Shown here one piece after another: positions 33,615 through 54,062 of a DNA stretch of 64,000 bases. A model generated the notes under the pieces. The model did no database searches. It was given only the letters and a program-made list of their open reading frames with translations, and was not told the origin of the DNA. The translations under genes were made by a program, and so were the position numbers. Origin of the DNA: an uncultured Anaerolineales bacterium (GTDB taxonomy: Bacteria > Chloroflexota > Anaerolineae > Anaerolineales > UBA6663); NCBI GenBank assembly GCA_964480865.1, contig CAYZRP010000006.1, positions 4,064 through 68,063 of the forward strand, read 5' to 3'. Positions within the stretch are counted from its first letter, which is position 1, and every line of letters starts with the position of its first letter.

Positions 33615-33620
33615 AAGCCC

Positions 33621-33797: not shown

Positions 33798-33845
33798 TTG
33801 GCCAGCTGTTCTTCTCCACGTTCAGTACGTGCAAAGGCAAGAACC

Positions 33846-35320: not shown

Positions 35321-35328
35321 AGGGGAAT

Positions 35329-35376: not shown

Positions 35377-35455
35377 GTTCGATTAAGGCCTTCTCCTGGC
35401 TACATCCCGATTCGCGTAAGGGCTTCAAGACGTGAGCGATCTACTCCTCGGGGCG

Positions 35456-35484
35456 TTGACAATTGGTGGAAGAGGCCGTAGTGT
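35456..35484 (+). promoter_or_regulatory. sigma70-like promoter of sRNA copy C
   Basis: TTGACA (35456-35461), a 17-nt spacer, then TAGTGT (35479-35484). Confidence 0.6.
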
Positions 35485-35490
35485 GTTTGC

Positions 35491-35680
35491 CAACAACATC
35501 GATTGCCGGGCTCCCAACAACCACACCTCTCCGGGTTTTCGCTGCGCCGTGGCTTTACGGTCTGAAGTGCGCGGCGACAGGATGGCAACTCATAACCCGG
35601 AGGTCGTAGGTTCGAATCCTGCCCCCGCCCGAAATACAGAAGGCTCGCCTCTGGATGGAGGCAAGCCTTCTTGTTCGTTC
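35491..35680 (+). ncRNA. unclassified small RNA with tRNA-fMet 3'-half tail, copy C
   Basis: Near-identical to copies A and B up to CCTGCCCCCGC. It then has a different terminator (AAGGCTCGCCTC/GAGGCAAGCCTT, 35640-35669) followed by CTTGTTCGTT. Confidence 0.7.
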
Positions 35681-35793
35681 TCCTGACAGTGTCCAGGGTC
35701 TTGCACCGGAGCTTATTGCCGTTAGTTCTGTTGTCCATCGTGGCCCGTTGCCACACTGTTCTGTGCCAGGCGACGAGGTTGGATAGGCTTGTC

Positions 35794-37292: not shown

Positions 37293-37859
37293 GTGCAGGC
37301 CGGCCTGGCTGCTGGCGAGGATCCGATGGTCCTCATGGCGGACTGCCGGGAGGGCATGGCCGGCGTCGGCAAGCGCTACGAAAGCGGCGAGTACTTCGTC
37401 TCGGACCTGATCATGGCTGGCGAGGTCTTCAAGGAAGTCATGGCCCTGATCGGCACTCGCTTCCAGGGCGACACCGGCACCAAACGCGGGGCCGTCGTGG
37501 TCGGGACGGTCAAGGGTGACATCCACGACATCGGCAAGGACATCGTCGTCAGCCTGCTGCGCGCTGGGAACTACGACGTGGTGGATCTGGGCGTGAACGT
37601 GCCGGCGGAGAAGTTCGTCGAGTCTGTGCAACAAAGCGGGGCTTCAGTGGTCGGCCTCTCCGGGCTGTTGACGATCTCGTTCGACGCCATGAAAGAGACG
37701 GTGGCGGCCCTGGCCGCGGCCGGGCTTCGCGAGAAGGTCAAGATCATGGTCGGCGGTGGGCCTGTCAACGAACAGGTGCGCGAGTTGGTCGGCGCTGACG
37801 CGCTGGGCGGGGACGCTCAGGCGGCGGTGAACCTCTGTGACATGTGGATCGCAGCCTAA
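37293..37859 (+). CDS. cobalamin-binding corrinoid protein (MtaC/MtbC-like), N-terminus short or uncertain
   Basis: B12-binding motif GDIHDIGKDIV (DxHxxG) and a helical cap ..LVQAGLAAGEDP... The frame opens only at 37254 after a TAG stop, and the first usable start is GTG at 37293. Confidence 0.7.
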   Translation: MQAGLAAGEDPMVLMADCREGMAGVGKRYESGEYFVSDLIMAGEVFKEVMALIGTRFQGDTGTKRGAVVVGTVKGDIHDIGKDIVVSLLRAGNYDVVDLGVNVPAEKFVESVQQSGASVVGLSGLLTISFDAMKETVAALAAAGLREKVKIMVGGGPVNEQVRELVGADALGGDAQAAVNLCDMWIAA

Positions 37860-37871
37860 GGAGAAGAGAAC

Positions 37872-39005
37872 ATGGAAAACGTGGCGCTGATGGAAGAACG
37901 CCTTGAGCGCATCCGCAAAGTCATCCGGTTCGAGCCGGTCGACCGTCTGCCGATCATCCAGAACGCCTCGGCCTGGGGGCCGCGCTACACCGGCCATACC
38001 GTGGCCGAGTTCTGCACCGTCAACGAAGCCTCAGCCCGGATCACGATCGAAGCGATGGACAAGCTTGGCGGCGTGGACGGAGTCAATATGGCGATGGTCG
38101 GGCGCACCCCGGCGATTCTGACCACCGCCTGGCTGTCGCGCATCGGCGTGCCCGGCCGCGATCTGCCGCCCGACAGCCTGTGGCAGGTGCGCGAGGCCGA
38201 GGTCATGACGCTCGAGGACTACGACACCATCCTTGAGAAGGGCTGGCCGGCGTTCCTCGACGGCTATATGCCGCGGGTGATCGACCCGGCCGACCTGGGC
38301 GACGCCCTGGGCTTTCTGATGGGCAACCTGAACCCGATGCTGCAGACGTACCACCAGCACGGCTATGTCACCATGGCCTCGACGGCGATCGCGACGCCGT
38401 TCGACTACCTGTGCGGCGGCCGATCGATGTCGCGGTTCTTCGTCGATCTGCACCGCATACCGGACAAGATCCAGGCTGTCATGGACGTCAGCCTTCCGGC
38501 CATCATCGGCCAGGGCATCGGCATCTCGAAGTCAGCCGGTGTGCCCGGCATCTGGATCGGCGGCTGGCGCACGGGGAGCGCGCTTGTGGCGCCGAAGCTG
38601 TGGAACCGCTTTGTCTGGCCGTATCTGGTGCAGTGCGTGCACGTTGTCGCGGCGGCGGGCCTCATCCCGATCTTGCACCTGGATCAGGACTGGACGCGTG
38701 ACCTAGCCCGGTTCCGCGAGTTGCCAGCCAAGACCTGCGTGATGAACCCTGACGGCCTGACCAGCCCGACGAAGTTCAAGGAGATCCTGGGCGATCACAT
38801 GACGTGGATGGGCGACACGCCCGCCACCCTGTTCGCGGCCGGCACGCCGGATGACATCTACGCCTACGTGCGCGATCAGGTCCAGCTGTTTGAGGGCCGC
38901 GGCCTCATCATCGCCCCCGGTTGCGATGCTCCGATCAACACGAAAACCGAGAACATGGAGGCCTTTGTCGCGGCCGCGAAAGAATTTGGCGCGGTGACGG
39001 CGTAG
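37872..39005 (+). CDS. uroporphyrinogen decarboxylase-family methyltransferase (MtaA/CmuA-like)
   Basis: 377 aa, URO-D-like, 12 nt after the corrinoid protein gene. This is the typical pairing in a corrinoid methyltransfer system. Confidence 0.7.
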   Translation: MENVALMEERLERIRKVIRFEPVDRLPIIQNASAWGPRYTGHTVAEFCTVNEASARITIEAMDKLGGVDGVNMAMVGRTPAILTTAWLSRIGVPGRDLPPDSLWQVREAEVMTLEDYDTILEKGWPAFLDGYMPRVIDPADLGDALGFLMGNLNPMLQTYHQHGYVTMASTAIATPFDYLCGGRSMSRFFVDLHRIPDKIQAVMDVSLPAIIGQGIGISKSAGVPGIWIGGWRTGSALVAPKLWNRFVWPYLVQCVHVVAAAGLIPILHLDQDWTRDLARFRELPAKTCVMNPDGLTSPTKFKEILGDHMTWMGDTPATLFAAGTPDDIYAYVRDQVQLFEGRGLIIAPGCDAPINTKTENMEAFVAAAKEFGAVTA

Positions 39006-43653: not shown

Positions 43654-45228
43654 ATGGATGCAATCCTGGCTGTGCCGGTCCAGTACAAGATCATCGGCAT
43701 TGTGATGCTGCCCGTGTTGATCCTGGGCTTGACGCTCAATTACTGGATTACCACGGGGCTTTCCGACTGGCTGTCCTACTTCGTCATGGATCAGCGTGTG
43801 CAGGCAGCGATGGCGAACGGCAGCCGCAGCGTTCTGCTGGTGACGCTGCTCTCGGCCGCGGGCAGCATCGTCTTCGCTTACCTGTTGATCTTTTTGCTCA
43901 CCCGACCCCTGGCCGAGCTGCGCCAGGTGGCCGAGGACGTCAGCACGGGCCGCCTCGACGCCCGCGCCCGTGTGTACACCGACGACGACATCGGCAAGGT
44001 GGCCGGCTCGGTCAACACGATGCTCGACCGTCTGGTCGAGACCCAGCGCAGCCTGGGGGAGGCCAACCAGCGCCTCGAAGTGATGAACCGTGTCGCGATG
44101 GCCGCCGGCCGCGAGCAGGAGCTCCCGGAAGTGCTCGACGCGATCCTGCAGGGCTTCGAGCATCTCGGGCTCGATCGTGGGTGGATCTATCTGCGCGACA
44201 GCGACACCGGCGCGTTCTATCTGGCGCACCAGCGCAACCTACCTAAGGAGGCGCTCGTGCACCTGGCCGCGCAGGATGATGGGCCGGCCCTGTGCGCGTG
44301 CCAGAAGGATCTCGTTGGCGCGGGCCTCGACCACGCCATGATGCGGACCTCGTGTCGTCGGCTCGGCCAGGCGATCGGCGACGATACCGCCACGCACATC
44401 AGCATCCCGATGACGGCGCGCGGCCAGGCGATGGGGATCGTCAACCTGTGGTGCCCGGACGGCTACGCGCCCAGCTCGGCGGACTTCGACATGCTCACCG
44501 CGACGGGGACTCAGGCGGCCGAAATCGTCAGCAATGCCTGGTTACGCGCGCGTCTTGTGGAGAAGGAAGCCGCGCGCCGCGCCCTGCTCGAATCTCTGGT
44601 GCGCACACAAGAGGCCGAGCGATCGCGTCTGGCGCGTGAGCTGCACGACGGCGCCGGGCAGACCCTGACGACGTTGCTGGTGCGGCTCAAGGCCCTCGAA
44701 CGCCAGGCCAGCGGATCCCAACAGGCCGATCTGGCGCGCCTGCAGGAGCTTGTCGCCGACAGCATCGAACAGGTGCGCGATCTGTCGTACCAGCTGCGGC
44801 CCGCAACGCTCGAGGAGTTCGGCCTCGCCCGCGCGCTGGACCATCTGGTGAACGAGACCGTGCGCCAGGCCGGACTGGAGGTGGTGACCCAGCTTCACAT
44901 CCGACGCAGCCTGCCGGGCGAGGTCGAGACCGCCCTGTATCGCATCGCCCAGGAGGGGCTTGCCAACATCCTCAAGCACGCGCACGCCTGGAAGGTCGAG
45001 GTCGAGCTCCTCGAGACGCCGTTCGGCGTGGCGCTGCGCATCGAGGATAACGGCCGCGGCTTCGACCCTTCGACTGTCGCTCAACGTGCTGACCGCCCAC
45101 ATCTGGGCCTGATCGGCATGCAGGAGCGGGTCGAGCTGCTCGGCGGGTCGCTAACCGTGGAGGCCGCTCCCGGCGCCGGGACCTCGGTGCAGGTGCGCAT
45201 CCCGATCCTCGAGGGAGAGGGGACATGA
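43654..45228 (+). CDS. sensor histidine kinase (TM-HAMP-GAF-HisKA_3-HATPase)
   Basis: ATG at 43654 (a TTG at 43603 is also possible). HAMP domain, GAF-like middle region, H-box ARELHDGAGQTL, ATPase box EDNGRGF. Confidence 0.85.
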   Translation: MDAILAVPVQYKIIGIVMLPVLILGLTLNYWITTGLSDWLSYFVMDQRVQAAMANGSRSVLLVTLLSAAGSIVFAYLLIFLLTRPLAELRQVAEDVSTGRLDARARVYTDDDIGKVAGSVNTMLDRLVETQRSLGEANQRLEVMNRVAMAAGREQELPEVLDAILQGFEHLGLDRGWIYLRDSDTGAFYLAHQRNLPKEALVHLAAQDDGPALCACQKDLVGAGLDHAMMRTSCRRLGQAIGDDTATHISIPMTARGQAMGIVNLWCPDGYAPSSADFDMLTATGTQAAEIVSNAWLRARLVEKEAARRALLESLVRTQEAERSRLARELHDGAGQTLTTLLVRLKALERQASGSQQADLARLQELVADSIEQVRDLSYQLRPATLEEFGLARALDHLVNETVRQAGLEVVTQLHIRRSLPGEVETALYRIAQEGLANILKHAHAWKVEVELLETPFGVALRIEDNGRGFDPSTVAQRADRPHLGLIGMQERVELLGGSLTVEAAPGAGTSVQVRIPILEGEGT

Positions 45229-45887
45229 GCGCGCAACCGCTGCGGATCGTCCTCGTCGACGACCACCAGATCCTGCGGGACGGCATCCGGGTGCTGCTCG
45301 AGGGTGAGCCCGGCGTTCGAGTGATCGGCGAGTGCGGCTCGGGCGTCGAGGCGCTTGAGTTGTGCGCGCGCGAGCAGCCCGACCTTGTCGTCCTCGACCT
45401 GAGCCTGCCCGACATGAGCGGGCTCGACGTCCTGCATCAACTCCAGGAGAAACAGCCGGCCGTGCGCGTGGTGGTGCTGTCGATGCACACCCAGCGCGAG
45501 TTCGTCCTGCAGGCCCTGGCCGGTGGCTGCGCGGCCTACGTGCCCAAGGCCACGGCCCACACCAGCCTGGTCGAGGCGATCCAGGCGGTGCGGCGCGGCG
45601 AGCGCTTCCTGCACCCCAAGGTCGCGGCCGTCCTGCTCGAGTCCTTTGGCGGCGACATGAGCGAAGTCCAGCAGTTCCAGGCGCTGTCGGACCGCGAGCG
45701 GGACGTGCTGCAGATGACGGCCTGGGGTTTCAACAGCCGCGAGATCGGCGAAAAGCTGGCCCTCAGCCCCAAGACCATCGAGACCTATCGGCAGCGCGCC
45801 ATGGAGAAACTCGGTCTTGAGCACCGGACGGATCTGATCCGCTTTGCCCTGCGAGCCGGCATTCTGGGCGAGCACGGCCCGGGCTGA
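45225..45887 (+). CDS. response regulator, NarL/LuxR family
   Basis: Receiver domain plus LuxR HTH (LSDRERDVLQMTAWGFNSREIG). Overlaps the kinase stop by 4 nt. Confidence 0.85.
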   Translation: MSAQPLRIVLVDDHQILRDGIRVLLEGEPGVRVIGECGSGVEALELCAREQPDLVVLDLSLPDMSGLDVLHQLQEKQPAVRVVVLSMHTQREFVLQALAGGCAAYVPKATAHTSLVEAIQAVRRGERFLHPKVAAVLLESFGGDMSEVQQFQALSDRERDVLQMTAWGFNSREIGEKLALSPKTIETYRQRAMEKLGLEHRTDLIRFALRAGILGEHGPG

Positions 45888-45995
45888 TCCCAACGGGTCC
45901 ACTCATTGCGCAACCCGAAGGAATCAGCGCGGGAAGCGGGTGCTCCGCCTGTCCCTTCCCGGCATGGCTGTGCAGTTCCGCCGGGTCGGGAAAAT

Positions 45996-46025
45996 CCGGA
46001 CAGGATTTCAGGTTTCGCCGGACAG
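45996..46025 (+). promoter_or_regulatory. direct repeat CCGGACAG x2 (22-bp phasing) upstream of rdhA
   Basis: CCGGACAG at 45996-46003 and 46018-46025. The first copy overlaps the inverted repeat AAATCC-N5-GGATTT. The sites lie about 100-125 nt upstream of the rdhA ATG. Confidence 0.3.
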
Positions 46026-46122
46026 AGAATCGGGTCTTTCCGCTCAGAGCGTTGCGTCGAAACCGTTACAGTCGTATCGACCCCTGGTCACAACGTATTC
46101 ATCATACCCAAGGAGGGAGTCG

Positions 46123-47544
46123 ATGAGCGACACAGACAAGGCCAAGCGGAAGTTTGGCCGACGAGAGTTCTTCAAGATGGCCGGCCTTGGCACCGGCGCG
46201 GCGGTGGCCGCGTCGTCGCTGCAACCGGTCAAGACGGCCAACGCCTCGGCCGCGCCGTACACGGATCCCGCTGGCCGGCCGGCCCGCCCGTGGTGGGTCA
46301 AGACGGTCGATCAGCCCACGACCGAGATCGACTGGGCCAAGATGAAGCGCTACAACGAGCGCTACGTCCAGGAAGAGGGCGCGGGCACGGTGCGCGGCGG
46401 CGGGTTTGCCGGTTATCTCGGCAAGGAAGAAGCCGAACGCCTGGTCAAGATGGGCGACGACAAGAACCTGCAACGGATCCGCGACAACGTCGACGGCTAC
46501 ACGCTCAAGGACTTCGCCCTGAGCGCCGGTCAGTCGGCCACAAGCGTCGGGCGCAGCTTCCTGGGCCCGCAGAAGGCCCAGACCCCCGAAGAGCGCGGCG
46601 TTCCGGCCTGGAAGGGCACGCCGGCCGAAGCGGCCAAGATGCTCCGCGCGGCGATGCGGCACATGGGCGCCTCGACGATCGGTTTCGTCGAGCTCGATGA
46701 CAACACCCGCAAGCTGATCTACTCGATCGATCCCGACGGGCACATCATGGAGTTCACCGACGACCCGGTGGCCTCCGAGACCGAGACGCATCGCTACATC
46801 CCCAATAGCTGCAAGTACGCGATCGTCTACACGGTCCAGATGTCGGAAGAGGCGATGAAGCGCTCGCCCACGATGACGGCTTCGCAGACGACGACCGGCG
46901 CGTATTCGCGCGGCGCGCAGATCGCGGCCGGCACCCAGGAGTTCCTGCGCTCGCTCGGATATCAGTGCCTGAGCGAGGCGTCGACAAACGCACTGGGCAT
47001 CGCCCCGGCCTTCGGTGTGCTCGCCGGCCTGGGCGAGATGTCGCGCATGAACCGCATGATCTCGCCCGAGTTCGGGCCCATGGTGCGCGTCTTCAAGATG
47101 CTCACCGATCTGCCGGTCGAGGTCGACAAGCCGATCAACGCCGGGATCATGGAGTTCTGCAAGTCTTGCAAGAAGTGCGCTGAGGCGTGCCCGTCGGGCG
47201 CCCTGAGCTTTGAGAGCGAGCCGTATTGGGAAACCAAGGGCGGCTGGAACAACCCGGGTCACAAGGCCTGGTTCGAAGACGCCGTCAAGTGCCGCACGTA
47301 CTGGGTCTCAGAGGCCGGCACGAACTGCGGCATCTGTTTCGGGGTGTGCCCGTTCTCCAAGAAGGACAAGGCCTGGATCCACGACTGGGTCAAGGCCGGC
47401 ACAAGCAGCGCTCCGTTCCTCGCGTCCTTCTTCCGCAGCATGGACGATGCCTTTGGGTACGGCGTCCAGAAGAGCGGCGAGGAATGGTGGAACCTGGATC
47501 AACCGGAATACGGCGTTGACAGTTCGATTGTCGTGAAGGGGTGA
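46123..47544 (+). CDS. rdhA: reductive dehalogenase catalytic subunit
   Basis: ATG at 46123 preceded by AAGGAGGGAG. Tat signal RREFFKMAGLG. Fe-S motifs CKSCKKCAEACP and C-x13-CGICFGVCP. Confidence 0.85.
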   Translation: MSDTDKAKRKFGRREFFKMAGLGTGAAVAASSLQPVKTANASAAPYTDPAGRPARPWWVKTVDQPTTEIDWAKMKRYNERYVQEEGAGTVRGGGFAGYLGKEEAERLVKMGDDKNLQRIRDNVDGYTLKDFALSAGQSATSVGRSFLGPQKAQTPEERGVPAWKGTPAEAAKMLRAAMRHMGASTIGFVELDDNTRKLIYSIDPDGHIMEFTDDPVASETETHRYIPNSCKYAIVYTVQMSEEAMKRSPTMTASQTTTGAYSRGAQIAAGTQEFLRSLGYQCLSEASTNALGIAPAFGVLAGLGEMSRMNRMISPEFGPMVRVFKMLTDLPVEVDKPINAGIMEFCKSCKKCAEACPSGALSFESEPYWETKGGWNNPGHKAWFEDAVKCRTYWVSEAGTNCGICFGVCPFSKKDKAWIHDWVKAGTSSAPFLASFFRSMDDAFGYGVQKSGEEWWNLDQPEYGVDSSIVVKG

Positions 47545-47548
47545 GGCC

Positions 47549-47767
47549 ATGAAGTCCTATACGCTTCAAATCGCAAAGCGCCCGTGGTACGAATGGGCGT
47601 TGTGGGTGGTGTGGTTCCTGGTCGAGATCTTTATCCTGCAGAACGCGATCGCCAGCGGCGCCGAGCTTGAGCCGCGCGCGGCCTCGATCTTCTGGATGAC
47701 CTTCATCGTCCTGTTGTTGGGCGGTGGCATCGTCTGGTTCGTGCGACGCGCGCGCCTGGCGAAGTAA
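47549..47767 (+). CDS. rdhB: reductive dehalogenase membrane anchor-like protein
   Basis: 72 aa with two hydrophobic helices. Starts 4 nt after the rdhA stop. The position and size are typical of RdhB. Confidence 0.65.
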   Translation: MKSYTLQIAKRPWYEWALWVVWFLVEIFILQNAIASGAELEPRAASIFWMTFIVLLLGGGIVWFVRRARLAK

Positions 47768-47797
47768 TTCCGCTCGAAGGCAAGCGTCTGATATCTG

Positions 47798-47823
47798 GAG
47801 AGGAAGGGCGATCCCTTCCTCTC
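47798..47823 (+). terminator. perfect 11-bp hairpin after rdhB (attenuator/stabiliser or weak terminator)
   Basis: GAGAGGAAGGG-cgat-CCCTTCCTCTC followed by CTTTC. It lies between rdhB and rdhC. Confidence 0.45.
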
Positions 47824-47838
47824 CTTTCGGCTACAGAG

Positions 47839-49071
47839 ATGACATCGATCCCGCCGACAGCCCCCGAGACCGATCGCGCCCCCGCCGGGCCGCGCGCCGA
47901 AAAATCGCGCCGCCAGCGCTGGCTGGTGCTCGCCACCCTGCTCGCCGTCGTGGCGGCCTGGGTCTATGGATGGCTGACGGCGGGCTTCGACGTGGCGCCC
48001 GAGGCCCTGGCGGCCATCGCCGGCGCCACCCGGGTTGAGGCTCGCGGTTCGATCTACTACGGCTACGACGGCGCCGGGCAGTTGGTCGGCTATGCGGGGA
48101 AGGGCGAGGCGCCGGGCTACGGCGGCCCGATCACGCTTGTCGTCGGGCTGGATCTCGCCGGCGCCGTGACCGAGGTGCGGGTCGTTCAGCAGCGCGAGAC
48201 ACCCAGCTTCTTCAGGCTGCTGGATCGCGAGGGCTACTACGACCAGTTCCAGGGTCAGCCGTACGACGCGAACTTCCAGCTCGGCCAGGGCATCGACGGA
48301 GTCAGCGGCGCGACCTTCAGCGCCGATGGCGTCGCCGCGGCGACGCGGCAGGCCATCCGGTCCGTGGCAGCCGAGGGTCTCGGGCAATCGCTGCCCGCCG
48401 ACGATGTCCCGATCCGTTTCGGCATCCCAGAAGTCGTCCTCATCCTGCTGTACGTTGTCGGCTACATCGGACACCGCCTGCGCAGCGCCCTCTGGCGCAC
48501 ACGTGTGCGCTGGGCGACGCTCCTGACCGGCCTTGTTGTCGTCGGCTTCATCTACACCATGCCGTTCACGATCACGCAGGTCGTATCGCTTCTCAGCGGC
48601 TACTGGCCCGACTGGCGCACCAACCTGTACTGGTACCTGCTCCTGGGCGGCATCGCCTTCGTCACGACGGTCGACGCCAAGAACCCGTACTGCAGCTGGT
48701 TCTGCCCGTTCGGAGCCTTTCAAGAGTGCCTGGGCACGATCTCGGGCGCGAAGCTGTATCGTCCCAGACAATGGGCTTCTGCGCTCACCTGGCTCCAGCG
48801 CGGGTTGGCCGGTGTGGCCATCGTGCTGGGGCTGGCGCTACGCCGACCGGGCGTGGCCGGGTATGAGCCCTTTGGCACGCTCTTCGATCTGCGCGGCACG
48901 ACCGTGCAGTGGGCCTTCCTGCTGCTCGTCGTGCTCGCCAGTCTTGTGATCTACCGACCGTTCTGCAACTACCTGTGCCCGATCGACCCCGTGGTGGAGT
49001 TCATCGCCGAGGTCCGGCGACAGGTCCGGGAAGGATGGCGCCGATGGCAGAGCCGCCACGCAAAGATCTGA
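47839..49071 (+). CDS. rdhC: RdhC/PceC-like membrane flavoprotein (FMN-binding domain + NosR/NapH-type polytopic Cys-motif domain)
   Basis: FMN_bind motif GIDGVSGATFS, about six TM helices, and the motifs CSWFCPFG and CNYLCP. Confidence 0.75.
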   Translation: MTSIPPTAPETDRAPAGPRAEKSRRQRWLVLATLLAVVAAWVYGWLTAGFDVAPEALAAIAGATRVEARGSIYYGYDGAGQLVGYAGKGEAPGYGGPITLVVGLDLAGAVTEVRVVQQRETPSFFRLLDREGYYDQFQGQPYDANFQLGQGIDGVSGATFSADGVAAATRQAIRSVAAEGLGQSLPADDVPIRFGIPEVVLILLYVVGYIGHRLRSALWRTRVRWATLLTGLVVVGFIYTMPFTITQVVSLLSGYWPDWRTNLYWYLLLGGIAFVTTVDAKNPYCSWFCPFGAFQECLGTISGAKLYRPRQWASALTWLQRGLAGVAIVLGLALRRPGVAGYEPFGTLFDLRGTTVQWAFLLLVVLASLVIYRPFCNYLCPIDPVVEFIAEVRRQVREGWRRWQSRHAKI

Positions 49072-49283
49072 AGCGGCCGTTCTTCGTCGCCTGGCTGGCG
49101 TTCTGCCTGGTGCTCGTGGTCCTGGTCTGGGTCGACAACCTCGGACCGGGCGAGGTTGCAGCGCCGCAGCCGGGCTTCGTGCGCAGCACCGCGCCGGTCA
49201 GCGTCGGCACGGTGACGCCAACTGTCAGCGTCGTGGCCACACCCGGCGAGGCGCCCACTCAAGATGTCACCGATGATCAGTGA
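49035..49283 (+). CDS. hypothetical small membrane protein
   Basis: ATG at 49035, one TM helix, and overlaps with both neighbouring genes. Weak call. Confidence 0.3.
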   Translation: MAPMAEPPRKDLKRPFFVAWLAFCLVLVVLVWVDNLGPGEVAAPQPGFVRSTAPVSVGTVTPTVSVVATPGEAPTQDVTDDQ

Positions 49284-50295
49284 GATAGCCCGTGTGAACA
49301 CTCATCCTGCCCGGGGTATCCGAGGCGTCTCGCGCCGCCGTTTTCTGAGGATCGTGGCGTTTGGCGGCCTCGCCGCCGGCCTCGGTGCCGCGACGGTCCG
49401 CCGACTGGCGCCGACAGCTGCGCGGGCCAGCCGGGTGCTGATGGGCACCGTGGTCAATCTGGCGATCGTCAGCGACGATGAACGCCGGGCAACCGAGGGC
49501 CTGACCGCGGCCTTCGCCGAGATGGAACGCCTGATTGCGCTGTTTGACCACCGCCGCCCGGAGAGCACGCTGGGGCGCCTCAACGCGTCAGGGTCGTTGA
49601 GCGAGCCGCCGGCCGAGTTTGTCGAGGTCCTGGCGCATGCGCTGGCCCTCAGTGCGTTGACCGACGGCGCTTTCGATGTCACAGTCCAACCCGTGATCGA
49701 CGCCTACCGCGACGGCATGACGATGGTTGACAGCCTGCGTGAGAGGATCGACTATCGACTGGTCGCGCTGAGCGATCGCGAGGTGCGCCTCGGCCGTCCC
49801 GGCATGGCGCTGACGTTCGATGGCCTCGCCAAGGGCCGCGTCGTCGACGGCGCGGTGGGCGCGTTGCGCTCGCTGGGCTTCGAGCGAGTCCTTGTCGAGG
49901 CCGGCGGCGACCTGTTTGCGTCGCGCACCGGCATCGATGGCCAACCCTGGCGCATCGGCATCCGTGACCCGCATGGCGCAGCCGACAATGCCGTCCTCAC
50001 ATTCGGGGCGGCCGATCTTGCCGTGGCGACGTCCGGCGACTATCTCAACGCCTTCACGATCGATCACGCGCTGCACCACATCATCGACCCGCGAACCCTG
50101 CGGTCGCCGGCGGAACTATCCAGCGCGACGGCGCTTGCGCCCACGGCCATGGCCGCCGATGCCCTGAGCACGGCCCTGCTCGTGCTCGGCGTCGATGCGG
50201 GCCTTGCCCTGGCGGAGTCGTTGCCGGGTGTAGAGGCCTTGCTGATCACCAAGGACGACCGACGTGTCGCCACGTCGGGCTTTCCGACTGCGTGA
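49264..50295 (+). CDS. apbE: FAD:protein FMN transferase (ApbE family) with Tat-type signal
   Basis: RRRFLRIVAFGGLAAGLG signal. ApbE-like core (..AFDVTVQP..ATSGDYLNAF..HIIDPRT). Confidence 0.8.
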   Translation: MSPMISEIARVNTHPARGIRGVSRRRFLRIVAFGGLAAGLGAATVRRLAPTAARASRVLMGTVVNLAIVSDDERRATEGLTAAFAEMERLIALFDHRRPESTLGRLNASGSLSEPPAEFVEVLAHALALSALTDGAFDVTVQPVIDAYRDGMTMVDSLRERIDYRLVALSDREVRLGRPGMALTFDGLAKGRVVDGAVGALRSLGFERVLVEAGGDLFASRTGIDGQPWRIGIRDPHGAADNAVLTFGAADLAVATSGDYLNAFTIDHALHHIIDPRTLRSPAELSSATALAPTAMAADALSTALLVLGVDAGLALAESLPGVEALLITKDDRRVATSGFPTA

Positions 50296-50317
50296 CAGGT
50301 GCGCTCAAGAGGATCCC

Positions 50318-51445
50318 ATGACCGATCACCCCACAGACCCGACCCTGGCCGAACCGTCGAGCGTCGCCCTCAAGGCTGCACTGGCGCGCGCTGAAGTTGA
50401 CGGCGACCTCGCTGCCCAGAACGTGCTCGCCGGAAAGCTCGGCCGCGCCCTGTTGGACGAGAACGAGGCGCTGCCGGCGTTGGCGTATTTCGAGCAGGGC
50501 GTCAAGATCGCGCAGCAACTTGACGACAAGGAGTCGGGCGCGCGGCATCTTGCCAATCAGGGCCTGGCGCTCGGTCAGATCGGGAACTACACCCTGGCCA
50601 TGCGCGCTTTCCGGAAAGCCTACGGTTTCGCGCGCGAGCTCTCGGACGATCCGCTGACGTTCGACCTGTTGCTGCGAATGGCGGAACTTGAGCGGGCCCG
50701 CAAGAACCCTGAGAGCGCGATCGGCCATCTCGAGGAGGCGCTCGACATCGCCAACCGTCATCGGAGCATCAGCCGCGCCCTGCGCGTCCATCTTGAGCAC
50801 GGCCAGGCGAGCTGGGATCTCGACGAGACCGACGTCGCCGTCGAGCACTTCGAGACGGCTCTGCGACTGGCGCGGGATGCCGGGGACGTCGCCGCACAGG
50901 GTCAGTGCCTGAACACCCTGGGCGCCTTCGCGCGCTCGCGTCGCGACATGAAGGGAGCCGCCGATTATTTCGCCGCGGCGCTGGCGCTCTCCCCGGCCGC
51001 GCTCTCAAAGCCGCAGCGATTGGCCCTCCTGGCTCAGCTCGGCGACATCCGCTTCAGCCAGGGCGAGTTTGACGCTTCGCGCGAGCTCTTCACCGAGGGG
51101 TTGACGATCGCCCAGAGCCTCGGCGATCGCGCCTCCGAATGCCGGATCCTGGGGAGCCTCGGCCTGATTGCGGCTGATCTCGGGGACTCAGACGAGGCCC
51201 TGCGCCTCGCCAATCAGGGCGTGGCCCTGGCCCGCGAGTTGGGCGATGCCCGGCTGCAGGGCGAACAACTGCTGTACCAGTCCATGGCGCTGAGCGACCA
51301 CGGCCTTGCTGAACAATCGCTTGAGGCCTGCGACGCGGCCATCGCCCTGTTTGAGAGCATCGAGGCCTCGTCACTTGTCCAGAAGGCGTACGAGCTGCGA
51401 GAAAAGCTGGTCAGCGAACCGGCTGACGATGCCGAAGACCTCTGA
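50318..51445 (+). CDS. tetratricopeptide-repeat protein
   Basis: ATG at 50318. Repeated ~34-40-aa helical units (..A..Y..AL.IA...GD...). Confidence 0.65.
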   Translation: MTDHPTDPTLAEPSSVALKAALARAEVDGDLAAQNVLAGKLGRALLDENEALPALAYFEQGVKIAQQLDDKESGARHLANQGLALGQIGNYTLAMRAFRKAYGFARELSDDPLTFDLLLRMAELERARKNPESAIGHLEEALDIANRHRSISRALRVHLEHGQASWDLDETDVAVEHFETALRLARDAGDVAAQGQCLNTLGAFARSRRDMKGAADYFAAALALSPAALSKPQRLALLAQLGDIRFSQGEFDASRELFTEGLTIAQSLGDRASECRILGSLGLIAADLGDSDEALRLANQGVALARELGDARLQGEQLLYQSMALSDHGLAEQSLEACDAAIALFESIEASSLVQKAYELREKLVSEPADDAEDL

Positions 51446-51745: not shown

Positions 51746-53470
51746 ATGGACATGATCCCCGAGCGCTATTCGGTCGCCATCATCGGTTCGGGCATGGGTG
51801 GCTCGACGCTGGCCAGCGTCCTCGCCCGGCAGGGGCTTTCGGTGATCGTCTTCGAGGGCGGGGTGCATCCACGCTTCACCATCGGCGAGTCCATGATCCT
51901 CGAGACGTCCGAGGCCATGCGGGCATTGGCCGAGTTCTACGACGTGCCTGAACTGGCCTACTACTCGTCCGAGAATTTCTACACCGACATCGGCACCTCG
52001 CACGGCGTCAAGCGCCACTTCAGCTTCGTCCATCACACGCCGGGCCGGCCCGCCACGGCCGAGCGCAGCCTGCAGGCCGTCATCCCGCGGATGCCGTACG
52101 GGCACGAGATCCACATCAACCGGCAGGACTCCGACTACTTCCTGACCTCGGTGGCCGTCTCGTACGGCGCCGACGTGCGCCAGGGCACATTGATCCAGGA
52201 TGTGCGCATCGGGCCGGACGGCGTCGAGATCGTGACCCAGAAGGGCGAGGTCTTCCACGCCGACTACGTCATCGATGCCGGCGGGATGAAGTCGCTCCTG
52301 GCTCAGCAGTTCGGGTGGCGTCATCGGGACATGCTGACCCACTCGCGCACGATCTTCACGCACATGATCGACGTGCCGTGCTTCACCGAGGTCTCGGCCG
52401 GGATGCGCGCCTCCGGCCATCCGTTTCGATTATCGGAGGGCACGCTGCATCATCTTTTCCGCGGGGGCTGGCTGTGGGTGATCCCGTTCAACAATCATCC
52501 GGCCGCCACGAACCCGCTGTGCAGCGTCGGCCTGCAGCTGGATCCGCGGCTGCATCCGCAACGACCCGACCTGTCGCCGGAGGCCGAGTTCCTGGACTTC
52601 ATTAAGGATTACCCCGATGTGCAGGCCCAGTTCGCGGGAGCCCGGGCGGTGCGCGACTGGATGCGCATCGATCGGCTGCAGTATTCGGCTCACCACATCG
52701 TTGGCGATCGCTGCGCGCTGCTGGCGCACGCCGCCGGGTTCGTCGATCCGCTGTACTCGAAAGGCCTGTACGTCACCCATGCCAGCCTGTTCCTGTTGGC
52801 GGACCTGCTGATCAAGGCGCACCGGACCGGGGATTATTCGGCAGCGGCGTTCGCGCCGCTCGAGCGCATGACCCTCGATTACGTCGGCATGCACGACAGG
52901 CTGGTCGCCAGTTCATTCAAGTCGTGGCGCAACTTCAAACTCTGGAACGCCTATGAGGTCCTCTGGCTGTTGGGGGCGTACCTGGAATACCTGCGCCTGA
53001 TCATCAACCGCTACCGCGCGAAGGGCGACCGCGGTCGTTACCTGGAGCTGATGCGGTCGCACCGGCTCGTCGGGGGCGGGTTCGACAAGTTCTTCGACGT
53101 GCAGGAGAAGATCGATGCGATCCTGGACGCCGTCGATCCCGATGACGAAGCCGCTGTCGATCGCGCGGTCGCGGCGATCAAGGCCGAGTTCGCGCGCTTT
53201 CCGTGGATCCCGACGACGATCCGCGACCTCCTGGAGGGCAAGAACCATCTGCCCGACAACAAGCTGCGCCTCAACCTGCTCAACCCGAAGACGGGCTTCT
53301 TCGGCGATGGCCCTTACCGCGAACACTTCTTCGGCGAGGCTACGCCGGTCGAGCTCCTGGCGCGGGCCGGGCAAGACCAGCTGCGCTACTCGGTTCCCGC
53401 GCTGAGAAACCGGCGTCGGCGCCGTGCCCGATTGGCCTGGCAGAGCCCCTCGGAGCGCCGACATGTTTGA
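51746..53470 (+). CDS. flavin-dependent halogenase
   Basis: ATG at 51746 preceded by GGAGG. GxGxxG (IIGSGMGG), WxWxIP (GGWLWVIPF) and FxxPxxSxG (FVDPLYSKG) motifs are all present. Confidence 0.8.
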
Positions 53471-54062
53471 CACCACGTTGCGCCAGGCCAAGGATCGCGT
53501 CGGAACGCCGCTCGCGTTGCGTCTCGGCGCCGTCTCGCCGAACGCCGTGTCGGTCGGCGGGTTCGTGGTCGGGCTCATCGCGGCCTGGCAGGCCAGCCAG
53601 GGGAACGGCGTCGCGGCCGTGATCCTGTGGCTGTTCAGCCGGATCCTCGACGGCCTCGACGGCCTGATCGCGCGCCTGCACGGAAAGCAAAGCGACTTCG
53701 GCGGCTACCTCGACATCGTGCTGGACTTCGTCGTCTACGCGGCCGTGCCAATCGGGTTGACGCTGAACGAGCCCGGACTGGATCGCTTCATCGCGCTTGC
53801 CGTTATGCTGTCGAGCTTCTACGTCAACGCGGCCTCGTGGATGATGCTGGCCGCGATCCTCGAGAAGCGCGGGCGTATCGAGGACGGGCTCACGACGGTC
53901 ACGATGCCGCCCGGCCTGATCGGCGCCCTCGAGACCATCGCGGCCTACACCGCCTTCTTGCTCTGGCCCGAGCAGACGGTGTGGTTGTTCAGTGTCTTCG
54001 CGGCCCTGGTGGGTGCCACGATCATCCAGCGACTCGTCTGGGCCTGGCGCCATCTGCGCTGA
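53463..54062 (+). CDS. CDP-alcohol phosphatidyltransferase family protein
   Basis: ATG at 53463 overlaps the halogenase 3' end by 8 nt. Motif [26 protein letters not shown] (DG-x2-AR-x8-G-x3-D-x3-D). Confidence 0.8.

What the first reader, a model, noticed from the sequence alone, without database searches (positions are those of the whole stretch)
43654..50295. Complete respiratory-type reductive dehalogenase module (TCS - rdhA - rdhB - rdhC - apbE) in a GC-rich, oxidase- and copper-rich genomic context
RdhA has a Tat signal and both Fe-S motifs. It is followed by a 72-aa anchor-like protein, an FMN-binding NosR/NapH-like RdhC, and an ApbE flavin transferase with its own Tat-type signal. ApbE could flavinylate the RdhC FMN domain. 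A GAF-containing kinase and a LuxR-type regulator sit directly upstream.

The module is compact and looks functional. It lies in a window otherwise full of aerobic-lifestyle genes (multicopper oxidase, CuA protein, cytochromes c). That is unusual compared with the classical obligate organohalide respirers.

A tightly linked apbE is notable, because maturation of RdhC/PceC-type flavoproteins is poorly characterised.
Basis: partly seen in the sequence, partly recalled or inferred. Interest (0 to 1): 0.6.

Follow-up and report, generated by a model that had tools for sequence, protein, structure and literature searches.

The report
Anaerolineae respiratory-type reductive dehalogenase operon
This is an intact membrane-bound reductive dehalogenase gene cluster with its own sensor-regulator pair and flavin-attachment enzyme; it is conserved across many uncultured filamentous Chloroflexi from sewage, soil and sediment, so it is a well-supported but unsurprising new member of a known kind of system.

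Summary
Window 43654-51445 (+ strand) encodes, in order:
- a HAMP-GAF histidine kinase
- a NarL/LuxR response regulator
- a Tat-exported RdhA
- a 72-aa RdhB
- an FMN-binding RdhC
- a small lineage-specific ORF
- a Tat-exported ApbE

All checkable family signatures are present:
- **RdhA:** TIGR02486 at 300 bits, two Fe-S motifs, and the catalytic Tyr/Asn/Arg of PceA.
- **RdhB:** the ExE motif.
- **RdhC:** SGAT(159)FS plus two CX3CP motifs.

The same gene order recurs in most of 80 related loci, nearly all Anaerolineae-class genomes assembled from metagenomes. A palindrome, TCAGGAAA-N21-TTTCCTGA, occurs only in front of rdhA-type genes (30 of 30 sites).

The nearest relatives from cultured organisms are RdhAs of Desulfitobacterium (48% identity), Dehalogenimonas and Dehalococcoides, not the cytoplasmic catabolic type.

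The "aerobic" context is a copper-homeostasis island 24-40 kb away, not a respiratory oxidase. Reductive dehalogenases in Anaerolineae, flavinylation of PceC by ApbE, and PceA genes inside flavinylation gene clusters are all already published.

Substrate and physiological role are unknown.

Side observation: a CtcP/PltM-type flavin-dependent halogenase lies directly downstream.

The parts
43654..45228 (+). Sensor histidine kinase: two transmembrane helices with a short outer loop, then HAMP, GAF, HisKA_3 and HATPase_c
   Evidence: Pfam; gene call in identical contigs. In 63 orthologues the TM1-loop-TM2 region is strongly conserved, and the GAF domain has near-invariant C214-x-C216, C234 and H248, plus C267 in 66%. 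Present in 43 of 46 well-flanked loci.
45225..45887 (+). NarL/LuxR-type response regulator (receiver plus GerE helix-turn-helix); overlaps the kinase stop by 4 nt
   Evidence: Pfam and NCBIfam; present in 43 of 46 well-flanked loci.
45985..46072 (+). Putative operator and promoter of rdhA. Diverged half-sites are GTCGGGAAAA (45985-45994) and CTTTCCGCTCAG (46036-46047), with an internal ~21-nt duplication. A -10-like TACAGT lies at 46067-46072, and a GGAGG Shine-Dalgarno precedes ATG 46123.
   Evidence: In relatives the palindrome TYRGGRA-N21-25-TYCCYRA occurs at 30 sites in 1.24 Mb. 28 sites lie within 400 nt upstream of rdhA. The other 2 lie just after rdhB; in L063 that site precedes a second rdhA-rdhB pair, and in L078 a 506-aa ORF that was not annotated. 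The window's copy is assigned only by alignment to close relatives. The half-site alone is not enriched in the window. Binding by the response regulator is inferred.
46123..47544 (+). RdhA: Tat-exported corrinoid/Fe-S reductive dehalogenase catalytic subunit (473 aa)
   Evidence: TIGR02486 at 299.8 bits, cutoff 160; PF13486. Best solved structure is S. multivorans PceA, E=1.6e-56. Y261, N289 and R322 align with PceA Y246, N272 and R305 and are invariant in alignment A1, as are all 8 Fe-S cysteines and the RR motif. RRxF is present in 68 of 70 orthologues.
47549..47767 (+). RdhB: 72-aa, two-helix membrane anchor with an E39-L-E41 motif
   Evidence: Precomputed PF27193 VcrB. Conserved at 50-89% identity directly downstream of rdhA. 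ExE is present in 68 of 72 orthologues, within a conserved QNAxxSGxELEPRAA block. Hydropathy.
47839..49071 (+). RdhC: NapH/NosR-like membrane protein with an outward-facing FMN-binding domain (T159 in SGATFS) and two CX3CP motifs; no C-terminal ferredoxin domain
   Evidence: FMN_bind and Fer4_5; RnfG and NosR partial hits; RnfG FMN domains in the PDB. Motif conservation 57 of 58. Positions. Family definition from PMC5928378.
49044..49283 (+). 79-aa ORF with one hydrophobic helix, overlapping the end of rdhC and the start of apbE; uncertain gene
   Evidence: Called as a gene on the identical contigs. tblastn matches at the same position in eight loci: L007, L008, L009, L011, L015, L041 and L054, at 37-72% identity. 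No family hit.
49264..50295 (+). ApbE-family FAD:protein FMN transferase with a twin-arginine signal (RRRFLR)
   Evidence: PF02424 at 214 bits. A twin-arginine motif is present in 48 of 50 orthologues. It co-occurs with RdhC in 37 of 46 loci and never occurs without it.
50318..51445 (+). Cytoplasmic TPR-repeat protein, the last gene of the conserved cluster; role unknown. An assembly or chaperone role is a guess.
   Evidence: TPR_12 and related hits. A TPR gene at the same position in 33 of 46 loci, confirmed by Pfam for L024. No hydrophobic segment.

Best explanation
This is a chromosomal operon for a membrane-bound, outward-facing reductive dehalogenase of the quinone-dependent respiratory type. 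The host is an uncultured GC-rich Anaerolineae-class Chloroflexota bacterium found in sewage and activated sludge.

**Shown from sequence**
- RdhA is Tat-targeted. It has both [4Fe-4S] motifs and the Tyr/Asn/Arg catalytic set of PceA.
- RdhB is a two-helix anchor with the ExE motif.
- RdhC has the ApbE recognition motif (Thr159) and two CX3CP motifs.
- ApbE itself carries a twin-arginine signal.
- The gene set, including a two-component system and a TPR protein, is conserved as a block across Anaerolineae.
- An rdhA-specific palindrome is conserved in front of rdhA.

**Inferred mechanism**
1. The NarL-type regulator, phosphorylated by the HAMP-GAF kinase, binds the palindrome. The palindrome overlaps the -35 region, and binding turns on rdhA through the TPR gene. 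The kinase's conserved Cys-x-Cys/Cys/His GAF domain and conserved membrane loop suggest a redox, O2, metal or lipophilic-ligand signal.
2. RdhA receives its cobamide and Fe-S clusters in the cytoplasm and is exported by Tat. It then docks on RdhB at the outer face of the membrane.
3. ApbE is exported and uses FAD to attach FMN to Thr159 of RdhC.
4. Menaquinol electrons reach the RdhA clusters and the cobamide. The route is the RdhA/RdhB quinol site (as in PceA2B2), the RdhC membrane module plus its FMN, or both. An organohalide is then dehalogenated.

The substrate is unknown. Strong conservation (RdhA 52-89% tblastn identity across the 80 loci, mostly 55-70%, and higher than its neighbours) suggests one shared, probably natural, substrate class.
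For: - **Domain and motif evidence:**
- **Synteny:** of 46 loci with enough flanking sequence, HK is present in 43, RR 43, RdhB 42, RdhC 40, ApbE 37 and TPR 33. All six are present in 31. ApbE never occurs without RdhC.
- **Motif conservation in orthologues:** RdhC FMN motif 57/58; two CX3CP 57/58; RdhB ExE 68/72; Tat motif in RdhA 68/70 and in ApbE 48/50.
- **Operator:** all 30 palindrome sites lie in front of rdhA or just after rdhB, one of them confirmed in front of a second rdhA-rdhB pair in L063.
- **Nearest named relatives** are RdhAs of real organohalide respirers: Desulfitobacterium dehalogenans/hafniense 48%, Dehalogenimonas 44%, Dehalococcoides mccartyi CBDB1 42%.
- **Module swap:** in the Desulfitobacterium homologue's cluster, the slot after rdhAB holds a NapG-like ferredoxin and a NapH-like protein. 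There a NapH-type membrane module follows rdhAB with an Fe-S partner instead of a fused FMN domain. This fits an electron-delivery role for RdhC.
- **Literature:** PceC Thr168 is flavinylated by Ftp/ApbE and faces outward (PMC5928378). PceA2B2 binds menaquinone, with the PceB glutamates important (PMC10624902).
- **Locus stability:** GC content matches the surroundings, and the flanks are syntenic in L009, so this is not an obvious island.
Against: - No activity, expression or cofactor data exist for any member of this clade, and all relatives found are genomes assembled from metagenomes.
- PceC is about 50-fold less abundant than PceA in Desulfitobacterium and Dehalobacter, and its function is described as still unknown (PMC10624902). 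A main electron-path role for RdhC is therefore not established.
- Six of 46 well-flanked loci, mostly a ~55-59% identity subclade, lack rdhC and apbE nearby.
- No cobamide biosynthesis genes, cobamide uptake genes or RdhT-like chaperone are in the window, and there is no cobalamin riboswitch.
- The window's own operator copy is diverged and is assigned only by alignment.
- The AlphaFold model was too poor to use (mean pLDDT 56).
Confidence: 0.7

Rival explanations
1. The enzyme is a real outward-facing reductive dehalogenase, but RdhC and ApbE are not the main electron route. Electrons come from menaquinol at the RdhA/RdhB interface. RdhC acts as NosR is thought to act for NosZ: a low-abundance maintenance or reactivation module that keeps the cobamide and Fe-S centres reduced, for example after oxygen exposure in a facultative aerobe.
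For: - PceA2B2 alone forms a menaquinone site, and PceC is about 50 times less abundant than PceA (PMC10624902).
- The ExE motif needed for that route is conserved here.
- A subclade keeps HK-RR-rdhAB without rdhC or apbE.
- A membrane flavoprotein paired with a Tat-exported ApbE-family protein mirrors the NosR/ApbE arrangement (PMC12052999). The comparison with Tat-exported NosX is from my own knowledge.
Against: - rdhC and apbE are kept in the operon in 37 of 46 loci, and apbE never occurs without rdhC.
- In the Desulfitobacterium relative the same slot holds a NapGH-like quinol dehydrogenase, which points to bulk electron delivery.
- Gene order alone cannot separate the two roles.
Confidence: 0.3
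2. The cluster serves detoxification, or acts as a non-energy-conserving electron sink for halogenated compounds met in sewage or soil, rather than supporting growth by organohalide respiration.
For: - There is a single rdhA in the window, unlike the many copies in obligate respirers.
- The copper island with an O2-dependent CueO-like oxidase indicates an oxygen-exposed lifestyle.
- Identical sequences come from sewage metagenomes.
Against: - The architecture (Tat export, RdhB with ExE, a quinol-linked module on the outer face) is the one that conserves energy in known quinone-dependent respirers (PMC10624902).
- Facultative organohalide respirers with few rdhA genes are well known.
- Sequence cannot distinguish growth-coupled from non-coupled use.
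Confidence: 0.15
3. The RdhA-family protein reduces a non-halogenated substrate. It would be a conserved housekeeping reaction, in the way QueG is a family member with different chemistry.
For: - Unusually high conservation and near-single-copy distribution across a whole class, whereas substrate-specialised RdhAs are usually highly divergent.
- No substrate is known for any member.
Against: - The catalytic Tyr/Asn/Arg of PceA are invariant.
- The TIGR02486 score is far above cutoff, and the QueG model reaches only 37 bits.
- The closest named relatives are all RdhAs of organohalide respirers.
Confidence: 0.07
4. It is a cytoplasmic catabolic dehalogenase of the NpRdhA/BhbA type, which removes halogens so that the carbon skeleton can be degraded aerobically.
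For: The host probably tolerates oxygen, and catabolic RdhAs are the type usually reported from aerobes.
Against: - The Tat signal is conserved in 68 of 70 orthologues.
- An adjacent conserved RdhB is present.
- There is no fused reductase or vestigial B12 domain; the protein is 473 aa.
- It scores lower against NpRdhA (112 bits) than against PceA (195 bits).
Confidence: 0.02

Closest known systems
pceABCT of Desulfitobacterium hafniense TCE1 / Dehalobacter restrictus (PceA2B2 menaquinol:organohalide oxidoreductase plus the PceC flavoprotein)
   Same: - Tat-exported RdhA with two Fe-S motifs.
- A small RdhB with the ExE motif directly downstream.
- RdhC with an outward FMN domain, the [S/T]G[A/S]TX[S/T] threonine motif and two CX3CP motifs, and no C-terminal ferredoxin domain.
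- Flavinylation by an ApbE/Ftp enzyme.
   Different: - RdhA matches this PceA only moderately (139 bits, 8q4h).
- RdhB has two helices here, against three in PceB.
- There is no PceT trigger-factor chaperone; a TPR protein occupies the operon end instead.
- apbE is inside the operon and Tat-targeted. In D. hafniense the ftp genes lie in a separate operon of unknown function, and in D. restrictus the gene sits in the Tat operon (PMC5928378).
- Regulation is by a HAMP-GAF/NarL two-component system. The CprK-type and constitutive transposon promoter regulation of the Firmicutes clusters is from my own knowledge and PMC10624902.
- The host phylum differs.
Uncharacterised rdhA cluster of Desulfitobacterium dehalogenans / hafniense / sp. 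PCE1 (AFM02356.1, WP_019851504.1)
   Same: - Nearest RdhA from cultured organisms: 48% identity over the full length.
- Also TCS-rdhA-rdhB(VcrB), followed by a NapH-like (Fer4_5) membrane protein.
   Different: - The electron module is a separate NapG-like ferredoxin plus a NapH-like protein without an FMN domain, and no apbE is called in the 8 kb retrieved on either side.
- The two-component system is OmpR/HisKA type.
- An extra 403-aa unknown gene lies upstream.
PceAB of Sulfurospirillum multivorans
   Same: Closest solved structure (4uqu, 195 bits over residues 210-467), with the catalytic Tyr246/Asn272/Arg305 equivalents conserved. A short two-helix PceB and two-component regulators in the organohalide region are features I recall from the literature, not tested here.
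   Different: - The N-terminal half does not align by phmmer.
- More than 150 cluster representatives score higher than the 195 bits PceA reached in the PDB search.
- S. multivorans has no rdhC/apbE pair in its cluster (my own knowledge).
NosR plus ApbE/NosX in nitrous-oxide reductase clusters
   Same: A NapH-like membrane protein with an outward FMN-binding domain is flavinylated on a threonine by an ApbE-family enzyme. It supports a Tat-exported periplasmic metalloenzyme reductase (PMC12052999). RdhC gives a partial NosR hit.
   Different: - NosR has a C-terminal double [4Fe-4S] domain that RdhC lacks.
- The partner enzyme is copper-based NosZ, not a corrinoid enzyme.
Catabolic NpRdhA / BhbA-type reductive dehalogenases of aerobes
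   Same: The same catalytic superfamily (112 bits to 4ras), and hosts that live with oxygen.
   Different: Those enzymes are cytoplasmic, larger, lack a Tat signal and RdhB, and are NAD(P)H-linked. This one has Tat, RdhB and RdhC.

Membership tests
RdhA (reductive dehalogenase catalytic subunit, TIGR02486 / PF13486) | Profile match above the curated cutoff | tested here: met
   TIGR02486 at 299.8 bits against a cutoff of 160.35; PF13486 at 124 bits against 24.3.
RdhA, respiratory type | N-terminal twin-arginine (Tat) signal | tested here: met
   R13-R14-E-F-F-K followed by a hydrophobic stretch and A-N-A. R13, R14 and F16 are invariant in A1. RRxF is present in 68 of 70 orthologues.
RdhA | Two Fe-S cluster motifs (CX2CX2CX3CP and CXnCX2CX3CP) | tested here: met
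   C346/349/352/356 and C390/402/405/409; all eight are invariant in A1.
RdhA | Catalytic Tyr/Asn/Arg of PceA (Y246/N272/R305) | tested here: met
   Y261, N289 and R322 align to them in the phmmer alignment with 4uqu and are invariant in A1.
RdhA | Bound cobamide and measurable reductive dehalogenation | not testable with these tools
   Needs protein chemistry. No cobamide synthesis or uptake genes and no riboswitch are in the window.
RdhA, respiratory type | Groups with RdhAs of organohalide-respiring bacteria rather than with catabolic enzymes | tested here: met
   The nearest named cluster representatives are from Desulfitobacterium (48%), Dehalogenimonas (44%) and D. mccartyi CBDB1 (42%). 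PceA scores 195 bits and NpRdhA 112 bits. No formal tree against curated ortholog groups was built.
RdhB (membrane anchor; PF27193 VcrB) | Small protein with 2-3 helices encoded directly after rdhA, carrying a conserved ExE motif | tested here: met
   A 4-nt gap after rdhA; two hydrophobic helices; E39-L-E41; ExE in 68 of 72 orthologues. PF27193 is recorded for the identical protein. The local Pfam copy lacks that model.
RdhC (as defined in PMC5928378) | FMN-binding motif [S/T]G[A/S]TX[S/T] with the flavinylated threonine | tested here: met
   S156-G-A-T159-F-S inside the FMN_bind domain; present in 57 of 58 orthologues.
RdhC | Two CX3CP motifs in the membrane module and no C-terminal 4Fe-4S domain | tested here: met
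   CSWFCP at 285 and CNYLCP at 376. The protein ends at residue 410. 57 of 58 orthologues have two motifs.
RdhC | Six transmembrane helices with the FMN domain facing outward | tested here: inconclusive
   A simple hydropathy scan finds four clear membrane helices at threshold 1.6, plus one above-threshold segment (98-116) that lies inside the FMN-binding domain. Two weaker segments, around 262-278 and 317-335, are visible by eye. No dedicated topology predictor was available.
ApbE (FAD:protein FMN transferase, PF02424) | Profile match above cutoff and extracytoplasmic targeting | tested here: met
   PF02424 at 214 bits against 25.6 over the full profile. RRRFLR signal; a twin-arginine motif in 48 of 50 orthologues. 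It is below the E. coli ApbE equivalog cutoff (87 against 498), as expected for a distant member.
ApbE-RdhC enzyme/substrate pair | ApbE actually flavinylates this RdhC | not testable with these tools
   Supported only by co-occurrence (37 loci with both, 0 with ApbE alone) and by the motif.
Organohalide respiration (energy-conserving) | Growth or proton-motive force coupled to dehalogenation | not testable with these tools
   No isolate is available; all 80 related loci are from genomes assembled from metagenomes.
NarL/LuxR two-component system | HisKA_3 kinase paired with a receiver plus GerE regulator | tested here: met
   The signal sensed is unknown, and the GAF/sensor part has no PDB relative by sequence.

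The most novel reading that the evidence does not exclude
This cluster could be a core trait of the Anaerolineae class. Filamentous, oxygen-tolerant Chloroflexi that dominate activated sludge and many soils would then respire a shared class of natural organohalides under anoxia, switched on by a Cys/His-GAF redox sensor acting through the rdhA-specific palindrome. In this lineage the adjacent CtcP/PltM-type flavin-dependent halogenase could make the very compounds, or related ones, that the dehalogenase reduces. That would be a self-contained halogenation/dehalogenation cycle.
Probability: 0.1. Interest if true: 0.7.

Novelty: new member of a known kind. Interest (0 to 1): 0.38.

Why it matters
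If the cluster is active, abundant filamentous Anaerolineae in wastewater plants, soils and sediments would be overlooked organohalide reducers. A survey of wastewater Chloroflexota searched only Dehalococcoidia genomes for reductive dehalogenases and found none (PMC10746286). Yet a Candidatus Leptofilum proximum genome assembled from a metagenome (L024), a genus named in that survey, carries the full cluster.

The clade also bears on the disputed role of RdhC:
- rdhC and apbE are strictly linked.
- A NapGH-like pair replaces them in the nearest Desulfitobacterium cluster.
- A subclade lacks both.

The conserved palindrome gives a concrete, testable operator for a reductive dehalogenase regulon.

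None of this changes the known picture of how reductive dehalogenases work. It extends that picture to a new, large and ecologically important host group.

Tried and rejected
- **AlphaFold2 of RdhA** from the 20-sequence clade alignment gave mean pLDDT 56 and pTM 0.54. That is too poor for a fold search, so none was run.
- **Rfam** scan of the whole window at gathering thresholds found nothing, so there is no cobalamin riboswitch.
- **The operator half-site in the window alone:** 10 matches against 7.25 expected. It is not significant by itself, and the assignment rests on comparative data.
- **The consensus promoter scan** did not flag the rdhA upstream region.
- **PDB sequence search** with the kinase sensor region found no informative relative.
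- **Corrinoid protein plus MtaA/CmuA-like methyltransferase** (37293-39005): I considered whether they are part of the module. They are not conserved near rdhA in relatives. Only one unrelated B12-domain hit turned up, in L073. They show only that the organism uses corrinoids.
- **An "aerobic respiration" context:** rejected in favour of a copper-homeostasis island.
- **Horizontal-transfer island:** GC content matches the surroundings and the flanks are syntenic in L009. The low-GC insert at 33.4-37.1 kb is a separate AbiE toxin-antitoxin plus ATPase block.
- **The 79-aa ORF** has tblastn matches in only eight loci, so it is left as uncertain.
- **Literature searches** found no paper describing this specific Anaerolineae operon. 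The library is incomplete, so this is not proof that none exists.

Full report

Yes. ORF listing and profile searches show a co-directional gene row on the + strand.

| Gene | Coordinates | Key evidence |
|---|---|---|
| Histidine kinase | 43654-45228 | Two membrane helices, then HAMP, GAF_2, HisKA_3 and HATPase_c |
| Response regulator | 45225-45887 | Receiver plus GerE; overlaps the kinase stop by 4 nt |
| RdhA | 46123-47544 | GGAGG ribosome-binding site upstream; TIGR02486 299.8 bits against a 160 cutoff |
| RdhB | 47549-47767 | 72 aa, two helices |
| RdhC | 47839-49071 | FMN_bind plus Fer4_5 |
| ApbE | 49264-50295 | PF02424 at 214 bits |

The gene starts agree with gene calls on independent contigs that carry a 100% identical RdhA. 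Those calls also record PF27193 (VcrB) for the 72-aa protein, a model missing from the local Pfam copy.

Two features extend the finding. A conserved TPR gene lies at 50318-51445, 22 nt after apbE. A 79-aa one-helix ORF at 49044-49283 overlaps the rdhC/apbE junction.

**2. Sequence signatures**

- **RdhA:** Tat motif R13-R14-E-F-F-K. Fe-S motifs C346-x2-C-x2-C-x3-CP and C390-x11-C-x2-C-x3-CP.
- **RdhA catalytic residues:** in the phmmer alignment with S. multivorans PceA (4uqu, E=1.6e-56), Y261, N289 and R322 sit opposite catalytic Y246, N272 and R305. All of these residues are invariant in a 20-sequence clade alignment.
- **RdhB:** carries E39-L-E41.
- **RdhC:** carries D153-G-V-S-G-A-T159-F-S, which fits the RdhC consensus [S/T]G[A/S]TX[S/T] of Buttet et al. 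(PMC5928378). It also has CSWFCP (285) and CNYLCP (376), and ends at residue 410 without a ferredoxin domain.
- **ApbE:** begins with a twin-arginine signal (R24-R-R-F-L-R).

**3. Who carries it, and is it conserved?**

The identical RdhA occurs on sewage and other metagenome contigs with the same gene order. More than 1000 homologues were found. Hundreds have 65-68% identity, and where these are named they come from Anaerolineales, Ardenticatenaceae, Caldilineaceae and Chloroflexota genomes assembled from metagenomes.

A scan of one genome per species found 161 loci encoding a relative. The best 80 are almost all Anaerolineae-class assembled genomes, with a few labelled Acidobacteriota or Actinomycetota. 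None is an isolate.

tblastn of the window's proteins against these loci shows the same order throughout: HK-RR-rdhA-rdhB-rdhC-apbE-TPR. Among 46 loci with at least 3 kb upstream and 5 kb downstream:

| Gene | Loci with gene (of 46) |
|---|---|
| HK | 43 |
| RR | 43 |
| RdhB | 42 |
| RdhC | 40 |
| ApbE | 37 |
| TPR | 33 |
| All six | 31 |

ApbE is never present without RdhC: 37 loci have both, 3 have RdhC only, and 6 have neither.

Motifs are also conserved:
- RdhC FMN motif in 57 of 58 orthologues, and two CX3CP motifs in 57 of 58.
- RdhB ExE in 68 of 72, inside a conserved QNAxxSGxELEPRAA block.
- Tat motifs in 68 of 70 RdhA and 48 of 50 ApbE orthologues.

The 72-aa ORF is therefore a real, conserved gene, and the module is a stable unit rather than a chance adjacency.

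**4. Regulation**

The rdhA upstream regions of the relatives share an over-represented palindrome: TGTCAGGAAAA-N~17-TTTTCCYGATACC. About 20 nt downstream lies a -10-like TAnAnT.

The pattern TYRGGRA-N21-25-TYCCYRA occurs at 30 sites in 1.24 Mb of loci.
- 28 sites lie within 400 nt upstream of rdhA.
- The other two lie directly after rdhB in L063 and L078.
- In L063 that site precedes a second Tat-rdhA/rdhB pair.
- In L078 it precedes a 506-aa ORF that I did not annotate.

The element is therefore specific to the rdh cluster. I infer that it is the operator of the adjacent NarL-type regulator. Its downstream half sits where a -35 would be, as at activator-dependent promoters.

In the window and its closest relatives the element is diverged. 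It is expanded by a ~21-nt internal duplication (45985-46047; -10-like TACAGT at 46067-46072). The half-site alone is not enriched in the window, so this local assignment has only moderate confidence.

In 63 kinase orthologues the GAF domain has near-invariant C214-x-C216, C234 and H248, plus C267 in 66%. The TM1-loop-TM2 segment is unusually conserved. This hints at a bound metal, Fe-S or redox cofactor, or at a membrane-borne signal. It is a hint only, and no structural relative was found by sequence.

**5. Placement among known dehalogenases**

A full scan of 1.84 billion cluster representatives gave 464 hits at E<=1e-30. Identity falls continuously from 57% to about 35% over full-length, Tat-bearing proteins.

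The nearest named relatives are RdhAs of genuine organohalide respirers:
- Desulfitobacterium dehalogenans / hafniense / sp. PCE1: 48%
- Dehalogenimonas sp.: 44%
- Dehalococcoides mccartyi CBDB1: 42%

Among solved structures, respiratory PceA (195 and 139 bits) beats catabolic NpRdhA (112 bits) and QueG (38 bits). The catabolic, anchor-less alternative is rejected.

The Desulfitobacterium homologue sits in a cluster of the form TCS - unknown gene - rdhA - rdhB(VcrB) - NapG-like ferredoxin - NapH-like protein. There a NapH-type membrane module follows rdhAB with a separate Fe-S partner. In Anaerolineae the same slot holds an FMN-fused NapH-like protein plus its flavin transferase. This is the modular pattern described for NapH-like systems (PMC8238504), and it supports an electron-delivery role for RdhC.

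**6. How it most likely works**

Shown from sequence:
- RdhA and ApbE carry export signals.
- RdhB carries the anchor and ExE motif.
- RdhC carries the flavinylation site.
- The genes are co-inherited, and the cis-element is specific to the rdh cluster.

Inferred:
- Tat export of cofactor-loaded RdhA, which then docks on RdhB.
- ApbE transfers FMN from FAD to RdhC Thr159 on the outer face, as shown for PceC Thr168 (PMC5928378).
- Menaquinol electrons reach the two Fe-S clusters and the cobamide. They travel via the RdhA/RdhB quinol pocket (PMC10624902), via RdhC, or via both.
- Transcription is activated by the two-component system.

The role of RdhC is the weakest link. In Desulfitobacterium and Dehalobacter it is about 50-fold sub-stoichiometric and its function is described as still unknown. 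A NosR-like maintenance or reactivation role is therefore a serious rival, at about 0.3. This would be especially plausible in an oxygen-exposed host.

The substrate is unknown. RdhA is more conserved (typically 65-68%) than HK (~50%), RR (~54%), RdhC (~56%) or ApbE (~48%). This suggests one shared substrate class.

**7. Context claims**

The window is uniformly 60-69% GC. The "oxidase- and copper-rich" part lies at 6-22.5 kb and reads as a copper-homeostasis island:
- a CueO-like multicopper oxidase (12660-14288)
- an HMA-domain P-type ATPase (18763-21342)
- a CopI-like cupredoxin (21979-22497)
- DUF305 and PCYCGC proteins
- a weak CuA-like domain fused to a cytochrome c (5997-7025)
- an OmpR/HisKA two-component system

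No terminal oxidase catalytic subunit turned up among the ORFs I annotated. A CueO-type oxidase does imply exposure to O2. Aerobic respiration genes have been reported for the Anaerolineae isolate Levilinea saccharolytica (PMC11218635). A facultative lifestyle is therefore plausible, but the window does not demonstrate it.

No cobamide synthesis or uptake genes and no riboswitch are present. A corrinoid protein and an MtaA/CmuA-like methyltransferase at 37293-39005 show that the organism uses corrinoids, but they are not linked to rdh in relatives.

**8. Novelty**

Every component belongs to a described family, and the overall logic is known.
- The RdhC definition and ApbE/Ftp-dependent flavinylation are published (PMC5928378).
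- PceA genes within flavinylation-associated clusters have been catalogued across genomes (PMC8238504).
- rdhA in Anaerolineales was reported in 2016 (PMC4959059).
- Anaerolineae were called the main Chloroflexota reductive dehalogenase hosts in the ocean in 2025 (PMC12660952).

I did not find described, within an incomplete library, the following:
- the class-wide conserved operon HK(GAF)-RR-rdhABC-apbE(Tat)-TPR
- its palindromic operator
- its presence in abundant wastewater Chloroflexota

A wastewater survey searched only Dehalococcoidia genomes for reductive dehalogenases (PMC10746286). Yet a Candidatus Leptofilum proximum assembled genome (L024), a genus named in that survey, has the full cluster.

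I rate this a new member of a known kind. Its ecological interest is moderate, and it offers useful comparative leverage on the RdhC question.

**9. Side observation: a halogenase next door**

Directly downstream, at 51746-53470 on the same strand and ~300 nt after the TPR gene, lies a flavin-dependent halogenase.
- It is strongly similar to tetracycline 7-halogenase CtcP (350 bits, E=1e-103) and to the phenolic halogenase PltM (308 bits).
- It has the GxGxxG and WLWVIP motifs.
- It overlaps a CDP-alcohol phosphatidyltransferase gene (53424-54062).
- The adjacency is kept in L009, with the halogenase 94% identical.
- A 57% homologue lies 8.5 kb downstream of rdhA in L024, next to a VTT/DedA plus pyridine-nucleotide-disulfide oxidoreductase pair. 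The same pair is present in the window at 58959-61114.

Two independent lineages out of about 46 testable loci is suggestive but weak. A functional halogenation/dehalogenation link is speculation, with a probability of about 0.1.

Noticed in passing
window 51746-53470 (+), with 53424-54062 (+): A flavin-dependent halogenase of the CtcP/PltM type lies ~300 nt downstream of the rdh cluster on the same strand. PDB matches are 7v0b at 350 bits and 6bza at 308 bits, and it has the GSGMGG and WLWVIP motifs. It overlaps a CDP-alcohol phosphatidyltransferase gene. The adjacency is conserved in L009 (94% identity), and a 57% homologue lies 8.5 kb from rdhA in L024. Pfam and NCBIfam alone were ambiguous (Trp_halogenase, or CmlS far below cutoff).
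   Followed up: partly
window 58959-61114 (-); L024 17448-19776 (+): A VTT/DedA-domain membrane protein paired with a Pyr_redox_2 flavoprotein occurs in the window ~5.5 kb from the halogenase. In L024 the pair sits immediately upstream of the halogenase homologue, so it may be a functional partner, for example a flavin reductase.
   Followed up: partly
window 5997-22497: A copper-homeostasis island: CuA-like plus cytochrome c fusion, PCYCGC protein, DUF6803, a Cache-like (weak match)/HisKA_3 kinase with a LuxR regulator, DUF2085, a CueO-like multicopper oxidase, an OmpR/HisKA two-component system, DUF305, an HMA P-type ATPase and a CopI-like cupredoxin.
   Followed up: partly
window 33374-37086 (-): A lower-GC stretch (0.58-0.60 against ~0.65) carries an AbiEii/AbiEi type IV toxin-antitoxin pair and an AAA_14/DUF4143 ATPase. 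It is probably a small acquired defence or mobile insert.
   Followed up: no
window 37293-39005 (+): A methyltransferase-cognate corrinoid protein (TIGR02370-like, 142 bits, below its 215-bit cutoff) is followed by an MtaA/CmuA-family (URO-D fold) methyltransferase. They indicate corrinoid use by the host, but they are not linked to rdh in related loci.
   Followed up: partly
window 4460-5137 (-): A truncated IS605 OrfB-type transposase ORF (225 aa, PF01385).
   Followed up: no
L063 11661-13559; L078 11845-13501: In these two relatives the rdhA-specific palindrome recurs right after rdhB. In L063 it precedes a second, divergent Tat-rdhA (495 aa) with a 100-aa RdhB (about three hydrophobic stretches by eye), ahead of rdhC. 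In L078 it precedes a 506-aa ORF that was not annotated. The regulon can therefore hold more than one promoter with this operator.
   Followed up: partly
L087 4408-11470 (Desulfitobacterium dehalogenans-type contig): The nearest homologue from a cultured organism (48% identity) lies in a cluster of the form TCS(OmpR) - unknown 403-aa gene - rdhA - rdhB - NapG-like - NapH-like. A ferredoxin plus NapH pair sits where Anaerolineae have the FMN-NapH fusion plus ApbE.
   Followed up: partly
window 43654-45228 (kinase residues 214-267 and 1-80): The GAF domain has near-invariant Cys-x-Cys, Cys and His (C214, C216, C234, H248) across 63 orthologues, and the two membrane helices with their short loop are unusually conserved. 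This suggests a bound cofactor or a membrane-borne signal. No solved homologue was found.
   Followed up: partly
L058, L066, L076, L085, L086 and L040; on visual inspection also L060, L062, L069 and L075: A lower-identity subclade (~55-59% RdhA identity), including Black Sea and other marine or sediment assembled genomes, keeps HK-RR-rdhA-rdhB. It has no rdhC or apbE within the retrieved flanks. This is a natural comparison set for the role of RdhC.
   Followed up: partly
L047 and L077 (both on contig DASWJQ010000195.1): The same contig carries two copies of the cluster about 83 kb apart, with identical match statistics. In both, the two-component genes lie between rdhB and rdhC. This is either a real duplication or an assembly artefact.
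   Followed up: no
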